The translations under genes were made by a program, and so were the position numbers. DNA of 10,938 nucleotides from the IMG/VR virus record IMGVR_UViG_3300029212_000210, positions 1 to 10,938 of that record. One strand, given 5' to 3'. A model generated the notes under the pieces. The model was not told the origin of the DNA and did not search any database. It worked only from the letters and a program-made list of their open reading frames with translations. Below are positions 1-10,241 of the stretch, in pieces (positions within the stretch are counted from its first letter, which is position 1; each line of letters starts with the position of its first letter). The stretch comes from a virus (Duplodnaviria; Heunggongvirae; Uroviricota; Caudoviricetes).

Positions 1-816
1 ACGGTCTATCTTGGGGCAGGTTTAACTGAGCAGGATATTAATTATTTCTGCTTTTACTGGGATGATGTGGTTATTCTAGATAGTGAAAATATTCACTCGA
101 TTGTGCCTAAAGAAAAAGAATTATTAGATAATGGGGTATTACGTAGACCTATTATGAAACATGATGGTATGCTGAATATCCAAGACTTTCCATTTTTATA
201 TACGGAATTTCAGTTGCAGACATTGGATGAATTCAGGAAGAACGAGCCTGCTACTTATTGGCACTTTCATCAAACAGGGGAAAATTTAATATATGATAAA
301 GAACAGAAAACGGCCCTTCAGTTGAGATTGGAGTTGTTTAATGTTCTGAGAATTCCTGATAAAGATGCTCATATAGAAGATATATTACGTTTTAAAGATG
401 ATTGTCAGGATGATCTTAATGCGTTACATGAGTACTTAGAAAAACTGTATACTGAAGTCCTTTATTCTAGAGACCCTAATCTAACGAGGGCTAAAAATTT
501 TTCTTTATTACAAGAGGCTGTAGTTAATCTTGATAAAGCTATCGAAGGGAAATGGAGAAATCCTATCAGAATGGGAGTCAAAGCCAATCCAGAAGTAGAT
601 GGTGGGCAGGTTATGGAATTTTTAAAACCGTTGTACCATGCTGCTATTGCTGGTTATTCAGGCGGTATTATTCCCGGTATGGTTACAGCCTTGGCAACCG
701 CAATTCCAAGTTTTATAAAATTCCAACCAGAATGGGTGGGCTTTAGAGATAAGGGGCCTAAAGAATTAGCTTATCTTACCAAAGCAACGCATAAGGGGTT
801 GATTAAGAGAGCTTAA
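1..816 (+). CDS. Hypothetical protein, 5'-partial. The frame is open from position 1 and the ORF track starts it at a GTG at 67. AT-rich cargo gene in the P2 tin/old hotspot, with a hydrophobic C-terminal segment.
   Basis: Seen: an uninterrupted frame-1 ORF from the window edge to the stop at 814-816. GC is about 35% against about 55-60% in the neighbouring structural genes (counted by eye on sample stretches). Hydrophobic stretch GYSGGIIPGMVTALATAIPSFIKF near the C-terminus. I recognise no named family. Confidence 0.6.
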   Translation, partial: TVYLGAGLTEQDINYFCFYWDDVVILDSENIHSIVPKEKELLDNGVLRRPIMKHDGMLNIQDFPFLYTEFQLQTLDEFRKNEPATYWHFHQTGENLIYDKEQKTALQLRLELFNVLRIPDKDAHIEDILRFKDDCQDDLNALHEYLEKLYTEVLYSRDPNLTRAKNFSLLQEAVVNLDKAIEGKWRNPIRMGVKANPEVDGGQVMEFLKPLYHAAIAGYSGGIIPGMVTALATAIPSFIKFQPEWVGFRDKGPKELAYLTKATHKGLIKRA

Positions 817-918
817 GGCATTTTAATCGATTTTCGCAACTATATTCCTTCGTAACCACACAAGTGCATGACTATGCCGCATGAATCCGCATGATCGTTT
901 GAGGATCGTTTTAGCTGA

Positions 919-947
919 GGCCCGCTAGGAATGGCGGGCCTTTGCTT
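919..947 (+). terminator. Putative rho-independent terminator downstream of the cargo ORF
   Basis: Seen: stem GGCCCGC (919-925) paired with GCGGGCC (934-940), 8-nt loop, then TTTGCTT. Confidence 0.5.
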
Positions 948-988
948 ATGTCATGCAGGCGCATGAAAACCACTACATAAAGCGGGCA

Positions 989-1007
989 GGCGTGGCGGGG
1001 ATACGAG
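989..1007. other. Putative cos (cohesive-end) site of the P2-like genome
   Basis: Seen: GGCGTGGCGGGGATACGAG, located between the hotspot ORF and the 3' end of Q. Established (from memory): the P2 and 186 cohesive ends begin GGCG(A/T)GGCGGGGAAAGCA and lie next to the Q gene. The exact cut positions are not determinable here. Confidence 0.5.
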
Positions 1008-1095
1008 CGCGCGCAACGGGGTAAAATGGCCAAAATCCGGCGCAGCCTCTGGCCCGCTGGCAGCCTCATTTTGCGTAGGGGGAAAATGTCAGGAC

Positions 1096-1131
1096 AAAAA
1101 GAAACGCCCTGCAGAATGCTGCTGGGGCGTT
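1096..1131 (-). terminator. Rho-independent terminator of the P-Q operon
   Basis: Seen: inverted repeat AACGCCC (1103-1109) / GGGCGTT (1125-1131) with an inner GCAG/CTGC pair. On the minus strand it is followed by UCUUUUUGU (plus-strand A-run 1096-1102), 36 nt past the Q stop. Confidence 0.6.
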
Positions 1132-1166
1132 GTGAGAATTGGTCAGTTATTGATGTTGTGAGTATG

Positions 1167-2216
1167 TCAGCCTCGTTTGCTCTTAAGTCCTAAGTCATAG
1201 GTTTCAAAACGGATCACCTTTTCACCCAGCCAGTTGTTAAGCTCCAGCAGTCGCTTTTGCAGTGGCATCAGCTCATTGCGGACGAAAACACGGCTCGCCT
1301 TTTCCACATCACCGAAGCCGCCAGTGTTGTTGGGAATGATACCCATCATTTGCGGCGGTACGCGGTGTGCCGCCATCATGTCGTCCCGACTCACGTTCTT
1401 GATGTTCAGAAATTCATCCTTCGCCGCGACTTCCGACAACGGGATGATCTGAAGCCCGTCCTTTTTGCCGTTAGGCGAGTACATAAACAGGTTACGGAAG
1501 TTACCAGGACCTTTGGCACTTTTCATTGCGTTGCGGAGGTTGTTCACATCCTCCTGGTTCTGCGCGGCGTCGGTCATGTACATGATGAAGCCCGCATGGC
1601 TGCCGTTAATGTAATACTTCCGGCGGAACAGCGTGGCGGACTCGTTGAGCAGGGCGGATGGAATGGCAGAAAGGTAACCTGGCAGACCATAAATCTCCTG
1701 GTTGATATCCGGCTCCATCAGGTGGAAGACGTTACCTTTTGTGAACTGATACGGCTGTGTCGTCAGGCTGTATTGCACAAACCAGTAGGTATCCAGGTCT
1801 AACCCGCGTCGGGTGTATTTTGCCAGCGCAGGTTCAAGGGCGATAACTTCACCGAAGCGGTTCGTGCGTTTCTCCAGGTAGGCGTTACCAAATACCAGAT
1901 AGTCCTGCACAAAACGTGAAAAAGCCTGCTGGCTGAGCAGTGGGTGAGGGATATAGGTGCTGGTCAGAATGTTGCACTTTACTGCAATCGGTGAGCTGTG
2001 GTGTACGGCGGCGCGGAATGTTCGCGCCAGGCCGTCGAAACTCACAGGCGGCTCATACCAGCGGTCCATCTGTACGCATTCCACATAGTCCAGCAGTTCG
2101 CGGCGGTCAAGTACTGGAACGGGATCACCGAAGCTGAATGCTTCGGCTGAAGTCTGGCTTTTATGCTGAATCTGGTTCGTCGACGCAGCGCGGTTCTTCT
2201 TACTCTTTCCCATCAA
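1167..2216 (-). CDS. Q: Portal protein (P2 gpQ family)
   Basis: 349-aa ORF. Position and orientation match P2 Q (next to cos, transcribed toward cos, ATGA overlap with the P stop). The sequence matches my recollection of P2 gpQ. Confidence 0.9.
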   Translation of the reverse strand: MMGKSKKNRAASTNQIQHKSQTSAEAFSFGDPVPVLDRRELLDYVECVQMDRWYEPPVSFDGLARTFRAAVHHSSPIAVKCNILTSTYIPHPLLSQQAFSRFVQDYLVFGNAYLEKRTNRFGEVIALEPALAKYTRRGLDLDTYWFVQYSLTTQPYQFTKGNVFHLMEPDINQEIYGLPGYLSAIPSALLNESATLFRRKYYINGSHAGFIMYMTDAAQNQEDVNNLRNAMKSAKGPGNFRNLFMYSPNGKKDGLQIIPLSEVAAKDEFLNIKNVSRDDMMAAHRVPPQMMGIIPNNTGGFGDVEKASRVFVRNELMPLQKRLLELNNWLGEKVIRFETYDLGLKSKRG

Positions 2217-3979
2217 AAAATCTCCACAATATTGCTGGTATTGGCGGACTCGCCCTGCAGCGGTTCGTTAAACAGTGCGTGCATTGTTGCCCAGGCCAGA
2301 TCGGCGTGGCTGGCTTCTTCGCTGCGGCTGGCTTCATAGGTCGGGCGGTTGCCGCTGGCGGTGGTTGCGCGACGGATTGCCATGAATGACTGCGCAATGT
2401 CGGTGTGTCCGGCGTCAAACTCCAGACGGCGGTGGCTGATAATGTCGTAGGCCTTGAGTACCAGGGCATTTTTAACATTGGGGTTATAGACAAACTCCCG
2501 GACGGCAGGAAAGAAAGCTTTCACGTTCTCATAAACCCCGTGACCAACGCCGGTCGAGTCGATACCGATATACGTAACGTTGTACTGTTCGGTGAGTTTT
2601 TTGATGGCGTCAGCCTGGGCGCGGAAGTCCATCCCGCGCCACTGGTGACGCTCAAGAATGCGGAACTTACCACCCGGCACGGCTGGCGGAGCCACCACCA
2701 CGCATCCGGCACTGTCGCCGTTCTGCGTACCTTTTGCCGGGTCATAACCGATCCACACTTCGCGCCAGCCAAACGGGCGCAGCGCCAGTGCATGAAAGTC
2801 GGTCCAGACTTCCCAGCTGTCCACCATGCACGCCTGCAGCTCGCTGAGCGGGAACACGGACGCGAGATCGTCCACGAACTCACACATCAGCAGGTTCTGG
2901 TATTCGTCCGGGCTGTACTCCATGCGCAACTGGCCGAGGTCGAACAGGTTACAGCCACCGCGCACCGCATCTTCCACGGTGACTATCTGGCGGTATTGCC
3001 CGTCTGCGCACAGCAGGCCGGGGGCCAGATTGCTGTGGGACAGGTCGATGTCCACCTTGTCAGCTTTGTTGCGCCCACGGTTGAACAGCGCACCGGACCA
3101 GAACGGATAAGCACTGTGGGTCAGACTGGATGGTGTGGAAAAATAGGTCTGCCGCCATTTCTTGTGAATAGCCATACCGGAAGCCACTTTGCGTAGCTCC
3201 TGAAATTTCGGTATCCAGAAATATTCATCCAGATACAGGTTGCCGTGATAACTCTGGGCCGTGCGGGCATTGGTGCCGAGGAAGTAAAGCGTGGCCCCGT
3301 TAGGAAGCACCATCGGATCGCCTTTCAGCTCCACCTCCACTTCTTTGGCGAAGTCGATGATGTACTGCTTAAAGACGTGGGCCTGTGCCTTACTGGCGGA
3401 AAGGAAAATCTGGTTACGCCCGGTAAGCAGGGCGTCAATCAGGGCTTCACGGGCAAAGTAAAAGGTCGCGCCGATCTGGCGTGACTTCAGCAGGTTGCGG
3501 ATGCGGTTGGTTTTTCCGGCTTCCCACCAGTGGCGCTGGTAGTTGAACATGGAGGAATGGAAGATTTCTTCCAGCTTCTCAATCTGTTCATCGGTGAAGA
3601 CATTTTTTTCCGGCTGACGGCGCGGGCCTTTGTTGCGGTTGGCGACGTTAGGGTTTAAGTCGGCTTCGTTGCCGCCATTGTTAAACTTGCCGATCCGCGC
3701 GTGGCGCTCAGACTGGCGCGCCAGCAGGTCAATCTCTTTGAAATCTTTCCCTTCTTTGTGCTCCTTCATAATGAGCTGGCAGTAGCGTGCGGCGGTGGTG
3801 AGCTGCATCTGATCCAGCGGCCCATAGTCACCCCACTTGTCGCGTTTTTTCCAGCTGTGAACGGTTGCAACTTTCTCGCCCAGCATTTCAGCAATGCGGG
3901 CGACGCGGTATCCCTGAAAGTACAGCAGCATGGCCTGCCGACGGGGATCGAGATCTGCGGGTGTCAGTGTGGTGTTCAT
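2213..3979 (-). CDS. P: Terminase large (ATPase) subunit (P2 gpP family)
   Basis: 588-aa ORF immediately upstream of Q on the same strand. Length and sequence are consistent with P2 gpP (about 590 aa). Confidence 0.92.
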   Translation of the reverse strand: MNTTLTPADLDPRRQAMLLYFQGYRVARIAEMLGEKVATVHSWKKRDKWGDYGPLDQMQLTTAARYCQLIMKEHKEGKDFKEIDLLARQSERHARIGKFNNGGNEADLNPNVANRNKGPRRQPEKNVFTDEQIEKLEEIFHSSMFNYQRHWWEAGKTNRIRNLLKSRQIGATFYFAREALIDALLTGRNQIFLSASKAQAHVFKQYIIDFAKEVEVELKGDPMVLPNGATLYFLGTNARTAQSYHGNLYLDEYFWIPKFQELRKVASGMAIHKKWRQTYFSTPSSLTHSAYPFWSGALFNRGRNKADKVDIDLSHSNLAPGLLCADGQYRQIVTVEDAVRGGCNLFDLGQLRMEYSPDEYQNLLMCEFVDDLASVFPLSELQACMVDSWEVWTDFHALALRPFGWREVWIGYDPAKGTQNGDSAGCVVVAPPAVPGGKFRILERHQWRGMDFRAQADAIKKLTEQYNVTYIGIDSTGVGHGVYENVKAFFPAVREFVYNPNVKNALVLKAYDIISHRRLEFDAGHTDIAQSFMAIRRATTASGNRPTYEASRSEEASHADLAWATMHALFNEPLQGESANTSNIVEIF

Positions 3980-4025
3980 GGCACAAACCTACAGTCTTGA
4001 ATGAAGGCTTTCCCCGCCTGCGGTT

Positions 4026-4043
4026 TGTGTGGTTGTCGGTACA
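4026..4043. promoter_or_regulatory. Candidate Ogr-dependent late-promoter element (TGT-N12-ACA dyad) in the divergent P/O intergenic region
   Basis: Seen: TGTgtggttgtcggtACA, centred about 88 bp upstream of the O start codon. Established: P2 late promoters carry a TGT-N12-ACA element centred near -55. This pattern also occurs by chance a few times per 10 kb, so the position is what supports it. Confidence 0.5.
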
Positions 4044-4121
4044 AATACCGCGCATTGTTTCACTGCCCTCATCACCGCAACCATAAGGCTCCAGTAAGTT
4101 TTTTCTAACGGAGCACGGCTC

Positions 4122-4955
4122 ATGACAGTGAAAGCAAAGCGTTTTCGCATCGGGGTGGAAGGTGCCACTACCGACGGACGTGAAATCCAGCGTGAATGGC
4201 TGGAACAGATGGCAGCCAGCTACAACCCGGCGGTGTATACCGCGCTGATTAACCTTGAACACATCAAGTCTTATCTGCCGGACAGCACCTTTAACCGCTA
4301 CGGCAAGGTGACGGCGCTGTTTGCTGAAGAAATCACGGAAGGTCCGTTGGCAGGCAAGATGGCGCTGTATGCCGACGTTGAGCCAACGGAATCCCTGGTG
4401 GAACTGGTGAAAAAAGGCCAGAAATTATTCACCTCTATGGAAGTCAGCCCGAAGTTTGCTGATACGGGCAAAGCCTACCTGGTCGGCCTGGCTGCCACTG
4501 ATGACCCTGCCAGTCTGGGCACTGAAATGCTGACATTCAGCGCCAGTGCAGCCCATAACCCACTGGCAAACCGCAAGCAGAATCCTGCCAATCTCTTTAC
4601 CGCTGCAGAGGAAACGGTGATCGAACTGGAAGAAATCCAGGACGACAAACCGTCCCTGTTTGCCCGTGTCACGGCGCTGTTTACCAAAAAAGAGCAGTCC
4701 GATGACGCCCGGTTCGCTGATGTGCATAAGGCCGTGGAGCTGGTCGCCACTGAGCAGCAGAACCTGAGCGCACGCACCGAAAAATCCCTGTCTGAGCAGG
4801 AAGAACGCCTGTCTGAGCTGGAGACAGCCCTGCAGGCACAGCTGACCGCCTTTAACGAACTGGTGGACAAGCTGAGCCATGAAGACAGCCGCCAGGACTA
4901 CCGCCAGCGTGCAACAGGCGGTAACGCCCCCGCTGACACTCTGACCAATTGCTGA
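4122..4955 (+). CDS. O: Capsid scaffolding protein (P2 gpO family)
   Basis: 277-aa ORF, first gene of the rightward head operon. The acidic, coiled-coil-like middle and a C-terminus ending in TNC resemble P2 gpO. Confidence 0.88.
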   Translation: MTVKAKRFRIGVEGATTDGREIQREWLEQMAASYNPAVYTALINLEHIKSYLPDSTFNRYGKVTALFAEEITEGPLAGKMALYADVEPTESLVELVKKGQKLFTSMEVSPKFADTGKAYLVGLAATDDPASLGTEMLTFSASAAHNPLANRKQNPANLFTAAEETVIELEEIQDDKPSLFARVTALFTKKEQSDDARFADVHKAVELVATEQQNLSARTEKSLSEQEERLSELETALQAQLTAFNELVDKLSHEDSRQDYRQRATGGNAPADTLTNC

Positions 4956-4971
4956 TGGAGCACAAAACCTG

Positions 4972-6030
4972 ATGAAGAAGAATACCCGCTTTGCTTTTAA
5001 CGCTTACCTGCAGCAGCTGGCGCGTCTGAACGGTGTGGCTGTTGAAGAACTGTCCAGCAAATTCACCGTAGAGCCGTCTGTACAGCAGACGCTGGAAGAC
5101 CAGATCCAGCAGTCCGCCGCTTTCCTGACGCTGATTAATGTCACCCCGGTGACTGAACAGTCCGGTCAGTTGCTTGGATTGGGGGTTGGCAGCACCATTG
5201 CAGGAACCACTGATACCTCCGCGAAAGAGCGTGAGCCTGTCGATCCGACGCTGATGGTCGATGTGGAATATAAATGCGAGCAGACCAACTTTGACACGGT
5301 GCTGACCTACGCGAAGCTGGACCTGTGGGCGAAGTTTCAGGATTTCCAGGTGCGTATCCGTGACGCCATCGTGAAACGTCAGGCACTGGACCGCATCATG
5401 ATCGGCTTTAACGGCGTGAAGCGTGCGAAAACCTCCAACCGTAGCGAAAACCCGCTGCTGCAGGATGTGAACAAAGGCTGGCTGCAGAAAATCCGTGAGG
5501 ATGCATCGGATCACGTCATGGGCAGCACCACCACGGGCGGTGAAACCACACCGGGTGCGGTGAAAGTCGGGAAAGGTGGCGAATATGCCAACCTGGACGC
5601 AGTGGTGATGGATGCCGTCAATGAGCTTATCGACGTGGTCTACCAGGACGATGACGATCTGGTGGTGATTTGCGGGCGTGAACTGCTGTCTGACAAGTAT
5701 TTCCCGCTGGTCAACAAAGAGCAGGAAAACAGTGAAAAACTGGCTGCCGATATGATCATCAGTCAGAAGCGCATGGGGGGCCTGCAGGCCGTGCGTGCGC
5801 CGTTCTTCCCGCCGAATGCATTGCTGATCACCCGTCTGGATAACCTGTCCATCTACTGGCAGGAAGACACCCGTCGCCGTTCAGTTATCGACAACCCGAA
5901 ACGTGACCGGATTGAAAATTTTGAATCCGTTAACGAAGCCTATGTGGTTGAGGACTACCGCTGCGCCGCACTGGTGGAAAACATCCAGATTGGCGATTTC
6001 AGCGCCGCTGCAGCAGAAACCGGAGCGTAA
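4972..6030 (+). CDS. N: Major capsid protein (P2 gpN family)
   Basis: 352-aa ORF following O. Strong resemblance to my recollection of P2 gpN (for example the FAFNAYL, FTVEPSV and MIGFNGVKRA..SNRS.NPLLQDV stretches). Confidence 0.92.
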   Translation: MKKNTRFAFNAYLQQLARLNGVAVEELSSKFTVEPSVQQTLEDQIQQSAAFLTLINVTPVTEQSGQLLGLGVGSTIAGTTDTSAKEREPVDPTLMVDVEYKCEQTNFDTVLTYAKLDLWAKFQDFQVRIRDAIVKRQALDRIMIGFNGVKRAKTSNRSENPLLQDVNKGWLQKIREDASDHVMGSTTTGGETTPGAVKVGKGGEYANLDAVVMDAVNELIDVVYQDDDDLVVICGRELLSDKYFPLVNKEQENSEKLAADMIISQKRMGGLQAVRAPFFPPNALLITRLDNLSIYWQEDTRRRSVIDNPKRDRIENFESVNEAYVVEDYRCAALVENIQIGDFSAAAAETGA

Positions 6031-6033
6031 TTC

Positions 6034-6684
6034 ATGAGCCTGAGTCCCGCACGGCAGCATCGCCTGCGCGTCCAGGCTGAACAGGCCGCCCGCGAGGGCG
6101 GCAGTGTTCGCCACGCGTCGGGCTATGACCTGATGCTGCTGCAACTGGCGGAAGACCGCCGCCGTCTCAAGGGTGTTCAGTCCACGGTCAAAAAAGCGGA
6201 AATCAAGGTGGAGCTGCTGCCGAAGTACGCCGACTGGGCAGAGGGTGTCCTGGCTGCCGGAGGCGCACAGCAGGATGACGTGCTGATGTACGTGATGCTG
6301 TGGCGCATTGATGCCGGAGATTATGCCGGGGCGCTGGAGATCGGGCGTCACGCCCTGCGTCATGGCTGGGTGATGCCGTTAGGTAACCGCAACGTGCAGA
6401 CCGTGCTGGCAGAGGAAATGGCAGATGCAGCCCAGAGCGCAATGCTTGCCGCCACCGGCTTTGATGCCGATCTGTTGCTGCAGACGCTGGAGCTGACAGA
6501 CGGTATGGATATGCCGGACCAGTCACGGGCGCGTCTGCATAAAGCGATTGGCGCTGTCCTGAGTGAAAACAATCCGGCGTCCGCCCTTAATCATCTCAAC
6601 CATGCGTTACAGCTCGATCCCCGCTGTGGCGTGAAAAAAGACAAACAGCAGCTGGAGCGCAGACTGCGCAATGACAGCCGCTGA
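6034..6684 (+). CDS. M: Terminase small (endonuclease) subunit (P2 gpM family)
   Basis: 216-aa ORF directly after N (3-nt gap). Resembles P2 gpM (for example QDD.LM.VMLWR.D.GD.AGALEI, GVKK). Confidence 0.87.
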   Translation: MSLSPARQHRLRVQAEQAAREGGSVRHASGYDLMLLQLAEDRRRLKGVQSTVKKAEIKVELLPKYADWAEGVLAAGGAQQDDVLMYVMLWRIDAGDYAGALEIGRHALRHGWVMPLGNRNVQTVLAEEMADAAQSAMLAATGFDADLLLQTLELTDGMDMPDQSRARLHKAIGAVLSENNPASALNHLNHALQLDPRCGVKKDKQQLERRLRNDSR

Positions 6685-6704
6685 CAGAACGTGCCCCCGC
6701 GCAC

Positions 6705-6765
6705 GGGCGGCACGGGGTGGCGAAAGGCACTGCCACATCAAAACCCCGTCCACCGCCCTTTATTT
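6705..6765 (+). terminator. GC-rich stem-loop followed by TTTATTT between M and L. Possible attenuator or processing structure.
   Basis: Seen: GGGCGG-c-ACGGGG (6705-6717) pairs with CCCCGT-cca-CCGCCC (6744-6758), with an inner GTGGC/GCCAC hairpin, followed by TTTATTT (6759-6765) just before the L ribosome-binding site. Confidence 0.3.
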
Positions 6766-6779
6766 CAGGAGAAAGCAGC

Positions 6780-7313
6780 ATGAAGTTTGTTGCGCCAGAA
6801 CAGGCACCGGAACAGGCGGAAATCATCAGAAATACGCCGTTCTGGCCTGATGTGGACCTGTCGGAGTTTCGCAGTGTCATGCGCACTGACGGCACGGTGA
6901 CGCAGCCGCGTTTAAAGCAGGTTGCGCTGTCGGCAATTTCGGAGGTCAACGCAGAGCTGTATGAGTTTCGCAGACGCCAGCAGATGCTGGGGTATGCCTC
7001 GCTGGCAGAGATTCCGGCGGAACAGCTGGACGGCAAAAGTGAGCGCATTCAGCACTATTTCAACGCGGTTTACTGCTGGGCACGCGCCATGCTCAACGAA
7101 CGTTACCAGGACTATGACACCACGGCATCCGGTGTGAAGCGGGGCGAGGAACTGGCGGAAGCCAGCGGTGATTTATGGCGTGACGCCCGCTGGGCCATCA
7201 GCCGGGTACTCGAGGCCGGAGAATCAAGACAGCGTATTGCACTGATTTTTGATGTAGGCGTTTCTACCATTTATAGAAAATTTCCGGCAAATAAGATCAA
7301 TGAATCCCCCTGA
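6780..7313 (+). CDS. L: Head completion/stabilisation protein (P2 gpL family)
   Basis: The ORF track starts it at 6717, but an in-frame ATG at 6780 is preceded by AGGAGA and gives 177 aa, comparable to P2 gpL (169 aa). NTPFWPD.DL..FR and RRDARWAISR.L motifs match gpL. The C-terminal 25 aa are diverged. Confidence 0.82.
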   Translation: MKFVAPEQAPEQAEIIRNTPFWPDVDLSEFRSVMRTDGTVTQPRLKQVALSAISEVNAELYEFRRRQQMLGYASLAEIPAEQLDGKSERIQHYFNAVYCWARAMLNERYQDYDTTASGVKRGEELAEASGDLWRDARWAISRVLEAGESRQRIALIFDVGVSTIYRKFPANKINESP

Positions 7314-7361: not shown

Positions 7362-7379
7362 TGTGTGAATAACGACACA
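7362..7379 (+). promoter_or_regulatory. Candidate Ogr-dependent late promoter (F-promoter equivalent), TGT-N12-ACA dyad
   Basis: Seen: TGTgtgaataacgacACA, centred about 85 bp upstream of the FI-fragment start codon. Same reasoning as the O-promoter dyad. Confidence 0.5.
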
Positions 7380-7455
7380 ACTGCGCTTAGCTGTTTGTCA
7401 GGCACAATCACTTCAACATAGGGCGAAGCCTAATCCAATCAGGAGGTTCGCCACT

Positions 7456-7866
7456 ATGGCTCAGGATTACCACCACGGGGTGCGCGTTGTTGAAGTCAAC
7501 GAAGGCACCCGATCTATTACCACGGTGAGCACCGCCATCGTGGGTATGGTCTGCACGGGCGATGATGCCGATGCAAAAATGTTTCCTCTTAATAAACCCG
7601 TGCTGATCACTGATGTGCTGACTGCCAGCGGTAAAGCGGGTGAGTCCGGTACTCTGGCCCGTTCGCTGGATGCCATCGCTGACCAGGCAAAACCCGTGAC
7701 CATTGTTGTGCGTGTGCCGCAGGGTGAAACGGAAGACGAAACCACGACCAATATCATCGGCGCAGTGACTGCTGAAGGTAAAAAAACAGGTATGAAAGCC
7801 CTGTTAACCGAAGTGCTGGAATGGCGGTATAAAGCGATTCAGAGAAGCGGGGCCAACGATGAGTGA
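7456..7866 (+). pseudogene. FI: Tail sheath (P2 gpFI family) N-terminal fragment, about 122 codons, fused in frame to about 14 unrelated codons that end in an ATGA overlap with the next ORF
   Basis: Seen: 136-aa ORF with an AGGAGG ribosome-binding site. The first ~120 aa match my recollection of the P2 gpFI N-terminus (DYHHGV.V.E.NEGTR, TVSTAIVGMVCT, FPLNKPVLIT, IADQ.KPVT). Full-length FI is about 396 aa. Confidence 0.72.
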
Positions 7867-8959
7867 TAACAACCTGCGTCTGCAGGTCATTCTTAATGCG
7901 GTTGACAAGCTCACCCGCCCATTTCGATCTGCGCAGGCCAGTTCAAGAGAACTGGCTGCTGCTGTCAAAAAATCCCGCGATGCAATAAAGCAGCTTGATC
8001 AGGCCGGGAGCAGTCTGGACAGCTTCCGAAAGCTGCAGGCAGAAAATCAGAAATTAGGCGACAGGCTGAACTATGCCCGCCAGCGTGCAAATTTGCTCAG
8101 TCAGGAACTGGGAGCGATGGGGCCGCCTTCGCAACGTCAGGTTGTTGCTCTGGGCCGTCAACGGCTGGCTGTTCAGCGCCTGGAAGAACGCCAGAAAAAG
8201 CTGCAGCAGCAGACGGCGCTTGTGCGTGCTGAACTGTACCGGGCGGGAATTTCTGCGAAAGACGATGCGGGAGCAACTGCCCGTTTAGCCCGTGAAACAT
8301 CACGTTATAACCAGGAACTTTCGAAACAGGAGGCGCGGCTGAAGCGACTGGGGGAAGCTCAGCGCAGGATGAATGCAGCGCGTGCCAGTTATGCCCGTTC
8401 GCTGGAGGTGCGTGATCGTATTGCAGGTGCCGGAGCCACCACCACGGCTGCAGGGCTGGCAATGGGTGCGCCAGTGATGGCGGCAGTAAAAAGCTATACC
8501 AGCATGGAAGATGCCATGAAAGGTGTGGCAAAGCAGGTCAATGGTCTGCGTGACGATACCCGCGAACCCGCGAAGAAAGAAAGCACCACGGTGAAGCGTA
8601 AGCGCAGGACTAAGAAGCAGAAGAAAGAGCCGGAAGCGAAGCAGGGCGATTACCTGGTGGGTACGGATGAAAACGTGCTGGTACTTAATCGCACCTATGC
8701 CAACCGGAGCAACGCCGAACGGGCGGCAAAAATGCAGTGGGAACGCCTGCAACGCGGCGTTGCGTCATTCTCGCTACAACTGGCGGAAGGGCGGGCAGAT
8801 CTCTACACGGAAATGCCTGTGAAGGTCAGTGGTTTTAAACAGCCGATAGATGATGCGGAATGGACCATTACGACTCTGACACATACCGTCAGCCCGGATA
8901 ACGGTTTTACAACCAGTATTGAACTCGAAGTGAAGATTGATGATCTTGAAATGGAATAA
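7859..8959 (+). pseudogene. In-frame fusion of a tail tape-measure (gpT-like) N-terminal ~235 aa to the tail protein D (gpD-like) C-terminal ~130 aa
   Basis: Seen: 366-aa ORF. The N-terminal part is helical and coiled-coil-like with a Gly/Ala-rich hydrophobic segment, and sits where T should be. The C-terminal part (lysine-rich linker, then ERLQRGVA.FSLQLAEGRADLYTE.PVKVSGFK ... GFTTS.ELEV) matches the gpD C-terminus as I recall it, and sits directly upstream of ogr as D does in P2. Junction near 8560-8580. Confidence 0.62.
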
Positions 8960-8991
8960 AGTGTTCTCAATATTGATATTTTGTGTATCAT

Positions 8992-8997
8992 TACAAT
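8992..8997 (+). promoter_or_regulatory. Possible -10 hexamer (TACAAT) of the ogr promoter
   Basis: Seen: TACAAT about 30 nt upstream of the ogr start in an AT-rich spacer. No convincing -35 at 17 bp. Confidence 0.3.
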
Positions 8998-9027
8998 GAT
9001 TCTGATAGCAAAGGTAGGGATCTGGAT

Positions 9028-9246
9028 ATGATGAATTGTCCAAAGTGTGGTCATGCGGCACACACAAGGAGCAGTTTTCAAGTAACTGAAAGCACCAAAG
9101 AGCGTTACTGCCAGTGCCAAAATATTAACTGCGGGAGCACTTTTGTTACCCATGAAACAGTGGTCCGGTTTATTGTGACACCCGCACTGATTGCTACTGC
9201 TCCTCCACATCCATTGCCAGGTGGTCAGGGGCATATGAATTTTTGA
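9028..9246 (+). CDS. ogr: Late transcription activator Ogr (C4 zinc-finger)
   Basis: Seen: the ATG at 9028 (or 9031) is preceded by AGGTAGGGA and gives 72 aa with the CPKCGH...CQCQNINC zinc-finger pattern, equal in length to P2 Ogr. The ORF-track start at 8983 is a GTG further upstream and is not preferred. Confidence 0.9.
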   Translation: MMNCPKCGHAAHTRSSFQVTESTKERYCQCQNINCGSTFVTHETVVRFIVTPALIATAPPHPLPGGQGHMNF

Positions 9247-9253
9247 GAAAGAG

Positions 9254-9276
9254 AACCTGCTACGGCAGGTTTTTAT
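9254..9276. terminator. Bidirectional rho-independent terminator between convergent ogr and the BRCT-like ORF
   Basis: Seen: AACCTGC (9254-9260), loop TACG, GCAGGTT (9265-9271), then TTTTATT on the plus strand and CUCUUUCUC on the minus strand. It overlaps the minus-strand stop codon. Confidence 0.6.
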
Positions 9277-9755
9277 TCATCTGGGATCTCACCCGTTTCA
9301 AGAAAATGTATAAAGCCAGGCTCATCTATGATGATTGTGCCTTTCATCCTGGCTGCCGATACTTTTGATGGGCCTGCATTGTAACCGCAACAGAGCATCT
9401 GAAGGCTTTGGGTTACAGAGGTTCTTACCGTTAATCCTTGTTCATTCGCCTTATCAACCAATCTTTCTTTATCTGCTTTCTTAAATCCGGTGAAACACAC
9501 ATCGAATGTATTTTTTTTCGGACCAGACTGCTTAGTGAGATGTGAGTAGCTTTCGGGGAGGAATGACGCGCATTCCTGAATGGCTTGTTCTGGTGAATCG
9601 TACTGTTTAAGAATGCGGTCTTTTCGGAAGGTTTTTATTCGATCGGTGTTCTTACAAATGCCCTGTATATGATTTTCGCTATAACTGATGCTCTGTATAG
9701 AGTGAACACCGATACGACCATTTGCATTGATGTAAACAAAGTGAAGTTCTTCCAT
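9273..9755 (-). CDS. Hypothetical protein with a C-terminal BRCT-like domain and a small beta-rich N-terminal domain that is possibly WYL-like
   Basis: Seen: 160-aa ORF with an AGAGG ribosome-binding site 6 nt upstream of the ATG. GC is about 42%, lower than the prophage backbone. The C-terminal ~80 aa (FDVCFTGF..ADKERL..KA.EQGL.V..SV...L..L..G.N.G.SK...A...G..II.E..F..FL) fit the BRCT pattern seen in the LigA C-terminus. The N-terminal motif R.KTFRKDRI resembles the end of WYL domains. Domain calls are from pattern memory only. Confidence 0.65.
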   Translation of the reverse strand: MEELHFVYINANGRIGVHSIQSISYSENHIQGICKNTDRIKTFRKDRILKQYDSPEQAIQECASFLPESYSHLTKQSGPKKNTFDVCFTGFKKADKERLVDKANEQGLTVRTSVTQSLQMLCCGYNAGPSKVSAARMKGTIIIDEPGFIHFLETGEIPDE

Positions 9756-9878: not shown

Positions 9879-10241
9879 TGGTGGAGCTGGCGGGAGTTGA
9901 ACCCGCGTCCGAAATTCCTACATCCTCGGTACTACATGCTTAGTCAGTCTTTACATTCGCTTGCCAGCTGCGGACGGACACGCCACTAACAAACTAGCCT
10001 GATTAAGTTTTAACGCTTCAACCCCAGGCAGGGCTTCCACGCGATCTCTTTTGGGTTTGACCTCTCTTGATCCCCGTCCTAAGAGCGGAGGCTAGGGAGA
10101 GAGGGCTCTAAGCAGGTTATTAAGCTGCTAAAGCGTAGTTTTCGTCGTTTGCGACTATTTTTTGCGGCTTTTTACGAGGCCAACCGCCCCTCGGCATGCA
10201 CCTTGGGTTTCGCAAATCCCGTCGAATCCAGAATCAGCCCC
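9879..10241 (-). ncRNA. ssrA: tmRNA (SsrA), complete, 363 nt
   Basis: Seen: the reverse complement runs from GGGGCTGATTCTGGATTCGACGGG to GTTCAACTCCCGCCAGCTCCACCA and includes the tag-encoding stretch GCAAACGACGAAAACTACGCTTTAGCAGCTTAA (ANDENYALAA). It matches E. coli ssrA as I recall it. Confidence 0.97.

What the first reader, a model, noticed from the sequence alone, without database searches (positions are those of the whole stretch)
7859..8959. Chimeric ORF: tape-measure N-terminus fused in frame to the C-terminal domain of tail protein D
Seen: a single 366-aa frame. The first ~235 aa have the coiled-coil and hydrophobic-segment character of a tape-measure N-terminus. The last ~130 aa match the conserved gpD C-terminus. 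The junction lies in a lysine-rich linker near 8560-8580. Established: in P2 the order is T, U, D, ogr, so such a fusion removes most of T, all of U and most of D. Inference: an in-frame deletion product, either a neutral remnant or a selected chimera.
Basis: partly seen in the sequence, partly recalled or inferred. Interest (0 to 1): 0.5.

Follow-up and report, generated by a model that had tools for sequence, protein, structure and literature searches.

The report
Tape-measure/gpD fusion from prophage decay
The ORF is a real in-frame fusion of the first 233 codons of a phage tail tape-measure gene to the last 133 codons of the tail-hub gene D, left behind when 3.5 kb were deleted from a decaying P2-type prophage next to the E. 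coli tmRNA gene. It is an ordinary prophage scar, but its breakpoints fall on sites that break again and again in related prophages.

Summary
Confirmed. ORF 7859-8959 (366 aa) is gpT residues 1-233 joined to gpD residues 234-366 of a P2-type (Wadgaonvirus/186-like) prophage integrated at ssrA in E. coli. Both parts are 100% identical in protein to the intact relative, phage 500465-1. The join lies at 8556-8558, a 3-nt 'ATA' microhomology. It removes 3,556 bp: the rest of T, all of U, and D codons 1-233.

The same window carries two more deletion fusions: head-completion L to the invertase HTH, and sheath residues 1-117 to E'. The tail and lysis modules are therefore gone, while the head genes, ogr and attR remain. 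The identical three-deletion haplotype occurs in at least four gut metagenome assemblies but in none of 5,426 complete E. coli genomes. That pattern indicates one recent lineage, not repeated selection.

The chimera keeps only the last third of a gp27-like hub and the pre-domain part of T, so it is most likely a neutral remnant.

One result is unexplained. Deletion junctions in these prophages are strongly non-random. They cluster at a few sites (D nt ~345 and ~699, sheath codon 117, L codon 143). They also carry a TA dinucleotide far more often than chance predicts.

The parts
7859..8959 (+). Chimeric ORF T'::'D (366 aa)
   Evidence: ORF list. BLASTP to gpT 1-233 and gpD 234-366, both 100%. 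The exact protein is in public assemblies as P0001.
7859..8558 (+). gpT (tape measure) codons 1-233; the ATG overlaps the stop of the upstream E' frame, as in intact phages
   Evidence: 100% nt identity to L003 24486-25185. This part lies upstream of the Pfam PhageMin_Tail region, so it gives no Pfam hit.
8556..8558 (+). Deletion junction J3: 'ATA' shared by the T side (GACGATA|ATGG) and the D side (TTGCATA|CCCG); 3,556 bp lost
   Evidence: Three-way alignment of window, T side and D side.
8559..8959 (+). gpD codons 234-366: native lysine-rich segment plus the last domain of the gp27-like tail hub
   Evidence: 100% aa and about 96-98% nt identity to D of related phages. Full-length D aligns end to end with the R2 pyocin hub protein 6u5h_C.
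7456..7866 (+). Second fusion ORF: sheath FI codons 1-117 joined in frame to the last ~20 codons of E'; junction J2 at 7806/7807, 1,778 bp lost (rest of FI, FII, E)
   Evidence: Pfam Gp18_domIII_N plus Phage_P2_GpE. Junction alignment.
6780..7313 (+). Third fusion ORF: head-completion L codons 1-143 joined in frame to the C-terminal HTH of the tail-fibre DNA invertase; junction J1 at 7207-7209 ('TAC'), 8,623 bp lost (X, lysis genes, R, S, V, W, J, I, H, G, invertase 5' part)
   Evidence: Pfam Phage_GPL plus HTH_7. Junction alignment.
7362..7379 (+). TGT-N12-ACA dyad upstream of the sheath start, at the position expected for the Ogr-dependent late promoter P_F. The two fusion ORFs could therefore still be transcribed when Ogr is made.
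   Evidence: Pattern search; the count of this pattern in the window is not above chance. The reading as P_F rests on established knowledge of P2 late promoters and was not tested.
9028..9246 (+). ogr (late-gene activator), intact
   Evidence: Pfam Ogr_Delta, E = 1.5e-20. Collinear with ogr of L003.
9273..9755 (-). BRCT-domain ORF between ogr and attR, conserved in ssrA-type relatives
   Evidence: Weak Pfam BRCT hit. The same gene is present in L001, L002 and L026.
9879..10241 (-). ssrA (tmRNA). Its 3' end (about 9879-9923) is the prophage/chromosome boundary (attR).
   Evidence: ARAGORN. L007 diverges from the window after 9923.
1167..6684 (.). Retained head module: portal Q (1167-2213, -), terminase P (2213-3979, -), scaffold O, capsid N, small terminase M (4122-6684, +)
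   Evidence: Pfam families on called genes. 99.97% identical over window 1-7209, which includes this module, to the intact prophage L014.

Best explanation
The ORF is a scar of prophage decay. A P2-type (Wadgaonvirus/186-like) prophage integrated at the 3' end of ssrA in E. coli lost 3,556 bp by an illegitimate, microhomology-associated join. The join is between GACGATA|A in codon 233/234 of the tape-measure gene T and TTGCATA|C in codon 233/234 of the hub gene D. Both breaks sit at the same codon phase, so the product reads through as gpT(1-233)::gpD(234-366). Two further deletions in the same element, L::invertase and sheath::E', removed the lysis genes and all other tail genes. The element can no longer lyse the cell or build tails. 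The chimera lacks the gpT region that sets tail length and the first two thirds of the gp27-like hub, so it cannot perform either parental function. It is most probably a neutral by-product, possibly still transcribed from the retained late promoter when Ogr is present. Shown: the anatomy, the junction sequences, the missing DNA, the existence of intact and partly deleted relatives, and the clonal distribution. Inferred: the joining mechanism, the loss of function, and neutrality.
For: The parts are identical to gpT 1-233 and gpD 234-366, and the junction is mapped to 3 nt. Intact gene order FI-FII-E-E'-T-U-D-ogr-BRCT-ssrA is seen in phage 500465-1 and plasmid-borne 13P477T. L026 is an ssrA prophage that carries the sheath::E' deletion but has intact T (1025 aa), U and D (366 aa), which shows stepwise decay. 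The intact prophage L014 is 99.97% identical to window 1-7209 and 99.7-99.9% identical to the two short segments up to the T side of J3. The chimera gives no Pfam hit, although full-length D carries PF05954 and T carries PF10145. gpD aligns over its whole length with the solved R2 pyocin hub, so 133 residues are only its last part. The same haplotype is 100% identical over up to 10.9 kb in four assemblies from different samples and 99.8% identical in a fifth. It is absent from 5,426 complete E. coli genomes. Many other deletion fusions that keep the D 3' end occur in E. coli, including strain B.
Against: All three junctions in this element are in frame, which has a chance probability of 1/27 = 0.037. 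This could hint at selection against polar or truncated products. The late promoter dyad and ogr are retained, so expression is possible and a function cannot be excluded by sequence alone. The D'-ogr-BRCT part is at most 99.4% identical to any complete E. coli genome, while the parts to its left are 99.7-100% identical to known phages. The two sides of J3 may therefore have different histories.
Confidence: 0.88

Rival explanations
1. The chimera, perhaps together with the other two in-frame fusions, is a selected, exapted protein. It might be a decoy that interferes with tail assembly of superinfecting P2-type phages, or a domesticated remnant.
For: Three of three junctions are in frame. The late-promoter dyad and ogr are retained. 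The haplotype is seen in several human gut samples.
Against: The copies are clonal, 100% identical over 10.9 kb, so spread reflects one lineage and there has been no time for selection to leave a signature. The haplotype is absent from 5,426 complete genomes. Across 12 DNA-level junctions the in-frame excess is not significant, 7 against 4 expected. Other prophages carry out-of-frame junctions at the same D site, for example E. coli B and IH5. The retained pieces are fragments of folds.
Confidence: 0.07
2. The join was not an internal deletion of one prophage. It was an illegitimate recombination between an older resident remnant (D'-ogr-BRCT-attR at ssrA) and a second, incoming or co-resident P2-type genome.
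For: Sequence left of J3 is 99.7-100% identical to phages known from other sites; L014 sits at ybjL. Sequence right of J3 is only 95.8% identical to L014, 98.5% to 500465-1, and at best 99.4% to any complete genome. The same head module occurs with several different integrases and sites.
Against: P2-type phages are mosaic, so unequal distances to sampled relatives are expected. 500465-1 and L026 show ssrA-site prophages that contain both parts in the normal order. The 5' end of the element (integrase, attL) could not be retrieved, so this was not tested directly.
Confidence: 0.1
3. The fusion is an assembly or sequencing artefact, a chimeric contig.
For: The window comes from a metagenome assembly (identical to L004 and L006), and genomes with several P2-type prophages are hard to assemble.
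Against: The same junction is present in at least 10 contigs from independent projects and assemblers (ENA, JGI, Logan), with a one-residue variant in another run. De Bruijn mis-joins need long shared k-mers, but the sides share only 3 nt. Equivalent junctions exist in finished genomes, including E. coli B.
Confidence: 0.01

Closest known systems
Cryptic P2 remnants of E. coli K-12 (PR-X: yegZ-ogrK) and of E. coli B
   Same: A C-terminal fragment of gene D followed by an intact ogr next to the right attachment site. K-12 keeps the last 219 nt of D. E. coli B and C41(DE3) keep D from exactly the same position as here (nt ~699), fused to a truncated invertase gene. From my own knowledge, Slettan et al. 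1992 (J Bacteriol 174:4094) reported functional ogr genes in both remnants.
   Different: They lie at different chromosomal sites (yegR/cyaR region and ybjL, not ssrA) and have different left partners. The E. coli B junction is out of frame. The K-12 remnant has lost everything else, whereas this element keeps the complete head module.
Escherichia phage 500465-1 (Wadgaonvirus, NC_049342.1) and the intact prophage of E. coli 22-245 (L014)
   Same: They are the parental type: same gene order, with 95.9-100% nucleotide identity to the window's prophage segments for 500465-1 and 95.8-99.97% for L014. 500465-1 is also integrated at ssrA.
   Different: They carry full-length L, invertase, sheath, tube, E, T (1025 aa), U and D (366 aa), plus the lysis and baseplate genes.
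L026 (GCA_958308675.1), an ssrA prophage with only the sheath::E' deletion
   Same: It has the same sheath117::E' junction and the same right end (ogr, BRCT, ssrA).
   Different: T, U, D and the invertase are intact. The left flank of the shared junction differs by 3.3%, with the nearest difference 15 nt from the join. The right flank differs by 0.4%.
gp27-like tail hub proteins (P2 gpD, R2 pyocin hub 6u5h_C)
   Same: Residues 234-366 of the chimera are the C-terminal part of this family.
   Different: The N-terminal two thirds of the hub fold are missing and are replaced by unrelated tape-measure sequence.

Membership tests
P2-type tail tape-measure protein gpT (Pfam PF10145 PhageMin_Tail) | N-terminal sequence homologous to gpT | tested here: met
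   Residues 1-233 are 100% identical to gpT 1-233 of phage 500465-1.
P2-type tail tape-measure protein gpT (Pfam PF10145 PhageMin_Tail) | Full length (about 800-1000 aa) including the PhageMin_Tail region that spans the tail | tested here: not met
   Only 233 of 1025 residues are kept. The chimera gives no Pfam hit, whereas longer T fragments carry PF10145.
Late control/tail hub protein gpD (Pfam PF05954 Phage_GPD; gp27-like hub) | C-terminal sequence homologous to gpD | tested here: met
   Residues 234-366 are 100% identical to gpD 234-366.
Late control/tail hub protein gpD (Pfam PF05954 Phage_GPD; gp27-like hub) | Complete hub fold, aligning end to end with solved hub proteins | tested here: not met
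   Full-length D aligns at 15-355 with 6u5h_C. The chimera lacks residues 1-233 and falls below Pfam detection.
Defective (cryptic) P2-type prophage remnant | Collinear with an intact P2-type prophage except for internal deletions, lying at a known attachment site | tested here: met
   There are three clean deletion junctions relative to L003 and L014, and the right end abuts ssrA.
Defective (cryptic) P2-type prophage remnant | Loss of genes essential for plaque formation | tested here: met
   X, Y, K, lysA/B/C, R, S, V, W, J, I, H, G, FII, E and U are absent, and L, FI, T and D are truncated. That these genes are essential comes from established P2 genetics.
Defective (cryptic) P2-type prophage remnant | Inability to produce particles, and whether excision still occurs | not testable with these tools
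   This needs induction experiments. The integrase end of the element was not retrieved.

The most novel reading that the evidence does not exclude
The breakpoints of this scar may not be random accidents. Deletions in P2-type prophages of E. coli, at both the ssrA and ybjL sites and with two examples in the protein set labelled Salmonella, recur at a small set of sites. These are D nt ~345 and ~699, sheath codon 117, L codon 143, K codon 157 and the E' tail. The sites are joined to each other in many combinations, usually through a 2-3 nt overlap containing TA in a GNTA(NC)-like context. This would fit a sequence-targeted break-and-rejoin activity that drives fast, quasi-programmed prophage inactivation. 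Candidates include a phage function, such as the rolling-circle initiator A acting at ori-like sequences, and a host enzyme that makes short staggered cuts. The T::D chimera would then be one product of that activity.
Probability: 0.3. Interest if true: 0.65.

Novelty: new member of a known kind. Interest (0 to 1): 0.3.

Why it matters
Taken alone, the chimera is a textbook example of how prophages decay, and it warns annotators that a 'phage-related tail protein' of normal gpD length can be a fusion of two genes. The wider pattern could matter more. If deletions in a very common E. coli prophage family really are channelled to a few TA-centred sites, then prophage inactivation is faster and more repeatable than the usual picture of random deletion. 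Identical scars in different strains could then not be taken as proof of common descent. There would also be a specific activity, still to be identified, that shapes bacterial genomes.

Tried and rejected
1. Pfam on the chimera gave nothing, so it was uninformative; pairwise comparison with intact genes settled the identity.

2. A search for the same haplotype in complete E. coli genomes found none.

3. I tried to recover the integrase end of the element through the portal protein. This returned only other, mostly intact prophages, so attL and int remain unseen.

4. Explanations considered for the hot spots and not supported:
- The tail-fibre invertase acting at pseudo-sites. Its natural crossover sites, TTCTCACATACC-TT-GGTTTGGGAGAA and its partner, exchange at a central TT/AA, not where the junctions lie.
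- Integrase at pseudo-att sites. There is only a vague likeness to the tmRNA T-arm.
- Chi/RecBCD. The polarity is wrong for the retained side.
- DNA gyrase. Published drug-stabilised cleavage prefers scission before G (PMC6379681), and the motif matrix was not available to me.
- Known restriction specificities. None matches.

5. Phage A protein at ori-like sites. The P2 nick site has a DNA homologue in this phage type, preceded by CTGGATAACCCGCG, which resembles several hot sites. The D41 site is 17/21 identical to the ori region. However, the two strongest hot sites are not among the 30 best ori-like matches, and the junctions lie about 12 nt from the predicted pseudo-nick. This remains open.

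6. The apparent palindromic GNTANC preference is partly confounded by imperfect homology of left sites to the two D hot sites.

7. Literature searches for a described TA-centred deletion process in E. coli prophages found nothing relevant.

8. Liu & Haggard-Ljungquist 1994 (PMC332061) is not held.

Full report
**1. What is there**

The window is the right-hand part of a P2-type prophage abutting the E. coli tmRNA gene.
- From left to right it holds the 3' part of a DUF6236 'moron' gene and then portal Q and terminase P on the minus strand.
- Scaffold O, capsid N and small terminase M follow on the plus strand, and after them three short fusion ORFs.
- The right end holds ogr, a BRCT-domain ORF on the minus strand, ssrA (9879-10241, minus) and smpB.
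- The chromosomal flank is 100% identical to E. coli chromosomes, so the host is E. coli.

**2.

ORF 7859-8959 encodes 366 aa.
- Megablast of 7400-9300 against phages and E. coli genomes splits cleanly. Window 7807-8558 hits 'GpE / tape measure', and window 8556-9300 hits 'late control D / ogr'.
- The comparison used the intact relative Escherichia phage 500465-1 (Wadgaonvirus; order sheath, tube, E, E', T 1025 aa, U, D 366 aa, ogr, BRCT, ssrA, smpB). The chimera is gpT 1-233 plus gpD 234-366, both 100% identical in protein.
- In DNA the T side reads ...CGTGACGATA|ATGGC and the D side ...GGTTGCATA|CCCGCG. The window reads ...CGTGACGATACCCGCG.
- The join is therefore a 3-nt ATA overlap at 8556-8558, and 3,556 bp are missing.
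- Both breaks lie 700 nt into their genes, so the product has exactly the length of intact gpD. I treat this as coincidence.

**3. The context is stepwise decay**

The window differs from intact relatives by three deletions:

| Junction | Window position | Overlap | Joined parts | DNA lost |
|---|---|---|---|---|
| J1 | 7207-7209 | TAC | L codon 143 to the HTH end of the tail-fibre invertase | 8,623 bp |
| J2 | 7806/7807 | 0-1 nt (blunt) | sheath codon 117 to the end of E' | 1,778 bp |
| J3 | 8556-8558 | ATA | T codon 233 to D codon 234 | 3,556 bp |

- All three joins are in frame.
- The lysis genes and every complete tail gene are gone, while the head module is intact.
- An intact prophage in E. 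coli 22-245 (L014, at ybjL) is 99.97% identical to window 1-7209 and 99.7-99.9% identical to the next two segments.
- L026 (GCA_958308675.1) is an ssrA-site prophage with the J2 fusion but intact invertase, T, U and D. Intermediates therefore exist.

**4. Distribution**

- The exact chimera (P0001) and a one-residue variant (P0002) are in public assemblies.
- The contigs that carry it show the same three fusions.
- They are 100% identical to the window over 2.9-10.9 kb in four assemblies and 99.8% identical in a fifth.
- In one (L007) a second integrase element sits between the remnant and ssrA.
- No complete E. coli genome among 5,426 has the haplotype.
- The chimera therefore recurs, but as one young lineage. 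That says nothing in favour of selection.

**5. What it can do**

- gpD aligns end to end (15-355) with the hub protein of the R2 pyocin baseplate (6u5h_C, E = 1e-53).
- The 133 retained residues are only its last part, preceded by a variable lysine-rich insertion.
- The T part stops before the Pfam PhageMin_Tail region, and the chimera gives no Pfam hit.
- A TGT-N12-ACA dyad at 7362-7379 lies where the Ogr-dependent promoter P_F is expected, and ogr is intact. Transcription is therefore possible.
- Neither parental function can survive. The best reading is a neutral scar (confidence about 0.88 for deletion origin; neutrality is inferred).

**6. Rivals**

- *Selected chimera.* Only the three-of-three in-frame result (p = 0.037) speaks for it. 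Over 12 junctions read in DNA, 7 are in frame against 4 expected, which is not significant. The same D breakpoint is out of frame in E. coli B and IH5.
- *Inter-element recombination.* The right side of J3 is more distant from sampled relatives (at best 99.4%) than the left side (99.7-100%). This is compatible with mosaicism, and I could not retrieve the integrase end.
- *Artefact.* Excluded by independent assemblies and by equivalent junctions in finished genomes.

**7. An unexpected pattern: recurrent breakpoints**

The protein search returned about 95 other fusion proteins that keep the D C-terminus. Their N-terminal partners come from nearly every phage gene: T, U, tube, sheath, V, J, I, H, K, lysA, holin, X, L, M, N, O, A, Dam and invertase.

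I mapped these on the reference phage.
- This gave 82 distinct junctions. Of the 60 with a right end in D, 11 fall at D nt ~345 (..CTGAA|TACCCGCC) and 13 at D nt ~699 (..TTGCA|TACCCGCG).
- Each junction in those clusters has a different left partner, and p is about 1e-10 per cluster under a uniform model.
- Finished genomes add O::D345 (MB7671), T::D345 (AREA_497), T595::D699 (IAL7250), tube::D~705 (IH5) and invertase::D699 (E. coli B).

The other junction sites of the window are hot too.
- Sheath codon 117 (CCCTGT[TA]TCTG) is joined to at least 9 different right partners.
- L codon 143 (CCGGG[TA]CAGG) is joined to at least 7.
- The E' site is joined to sheath 117, W and L145.
- K codon 157 is used with D41, D84, D116, D234 and X.

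The junctions also share sequence features.
- Microhomology is typically 2-3 nt. It contains TA in 28 of 72 junctions with at least 2 nt of overlap, against 1.7 expected (p about 1e-26).
- Without the two D hot spots it is 12 of 49 against 1.1 expected (p about 6e-10).
- TA is the rarest dinucleotide of the region at 3.1%.
- Among the 12 junctions read directly in DNA, 8 contain TA.
- Junction TA sites show G at -2 on 63% of half-sites against 30% for other TA sites (p = 2e-8). This gives a GNTA or palindromic GNTANC tendency. It is partly confounded by imperfect homology to the D sites.

The J2 junction shared by the window and L026 has a left flank that differs by 3.3%, with the nearest difference 15 nt from the join. 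The window's own left flank is 99.7% identical to intact phages. This suggests either independent recurrence of the identical deletion or later recombination.

**8. Mechanism of the hot spots**

This is not resolved.
- The pattern is fixed sites, many pairings, a short TA overlap, and use of a site as either the left or the right end.
- It fits site-preferred breakage with short cohesive or annealed ends better than random breakage.
- The invertase, the integrase, Chi/RecBCD, gyrase and known restriction enzymes do not fit.
- The phage rolling-circle initiator A remains a candidate. The P2 nick site (GCCGCGCCTCG|GAGTCC) has a DNA homologue in this phage type (CCCGCGCCTTG|ATGCC) that is conserved in a different reading frame.
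- That homologue is preceded by CTGGATAACCCGCG, which resembles several hot sites. The match is imperfect and the junctions are offset from the predicted nick.

**9. Caveats**

- Most junctions were inferred from protein sequences projected on one reference genome.
- The protein sets were retrieved with queries that fix which end of each gene can be seen.
- Independence of events is inferred from different partners, not from a phylogeny.

**10. Verdict**

The chimera itself is an ordinary, already-catalogued kind of object. The breakpoint recurrence deserves a dedicated study.

Noticed in passing
window 6780-7313 (junction 7207-7209): Head-completion gene L (codons 1-143) is fused in frame to the C-terminal HTH_7 of the tail-fibre DNA invertase, with 8,623 bp lost. 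The L-side breakpoint (CCGGG[TA]CAGG) is joined to at least 7 other right partners in other genomes.
   Followed up: yes
window 7456-7866 (junction 7806/7807): Sheath codons 1-117 are fused in frame to the end of E'. The same junction occurs in L026, where T, U and D are intact, but with a left flank 3.3% different, the nearest difference lying 15 nt from the join. The identical deletion may therefore have arisen twice.
   Followed up: yes
L003 (NC_049342.1) 28385-28388 and 28739-28748; window 8556-8570: There are two deletion hot spots in gene D (nt ~345 and ~699), both at the 8-mer ATACCCGC. They are used with 13 and 16 different left partners respectively, including E. coli B. One database protein (P0063) is a D with an internal deletion exactly between the two sites.
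   Followed up: yes
related loci L009-L013, L016 and proteins P0001-P0360: Deletion junctions in P2-type prophages carry TA in the microhomology about 16 times more often than expected, and junction TA sites tend to GNTA/GNTANC. No known mechanism was identified.
   Followed up: partly
L003 1690-1712; L014 18466-18490; L027 (P2) 1880-1900: The P2 ori nick motif is conserved as DNA (CCGCGCCTYG|) in the A gene of this phage type although the reading frame differs. It is preceded by CTGGATAACCCGCG, which resembles several deletion hot sites.
   Followed up: partly
window 1-816: This is the 3' part of a DUF6236-family gene in the variable slot between the replication genes and the portal gene (the P2 'old/tin' position). 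Relatives carry TIR, HIRAN, retron RT, AIPR or PIN genes there, so it is probably a defence-gene slot.
   Followed up: no
window 9273-9755 (-): A 160-aa ORF with a weak BRCT hit lies between ogr and attR. It is conserved in all ssrA-type relatives, is annotated as 'DNA ligase' or 'BRCT domain-containing protein', and its function is unknown.
   Followed up: no
L007 2783-5417 (window equivalent: beyond 9923): In one metagenome contig the same remnant is followed, from the att core onward, by another integrase-bearing element instead of ssrA/smpB. This is a tandem occupation of the ssrA site.
   Followed up: no
window 8803-9234 (-): Gene callers in public assemblies call a 143-aa ORF antisense to the D' 3' end and ogr. 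It has no family hit and is probably spurious.
   Followed up: no
window 7859-8959: The deletion length (3,556 bp) equals the distance between the T and D start codons, so the chimera has exactly the length of intact gpD (366 aa). This can mislead length-based annotation.
   Followed up: yes
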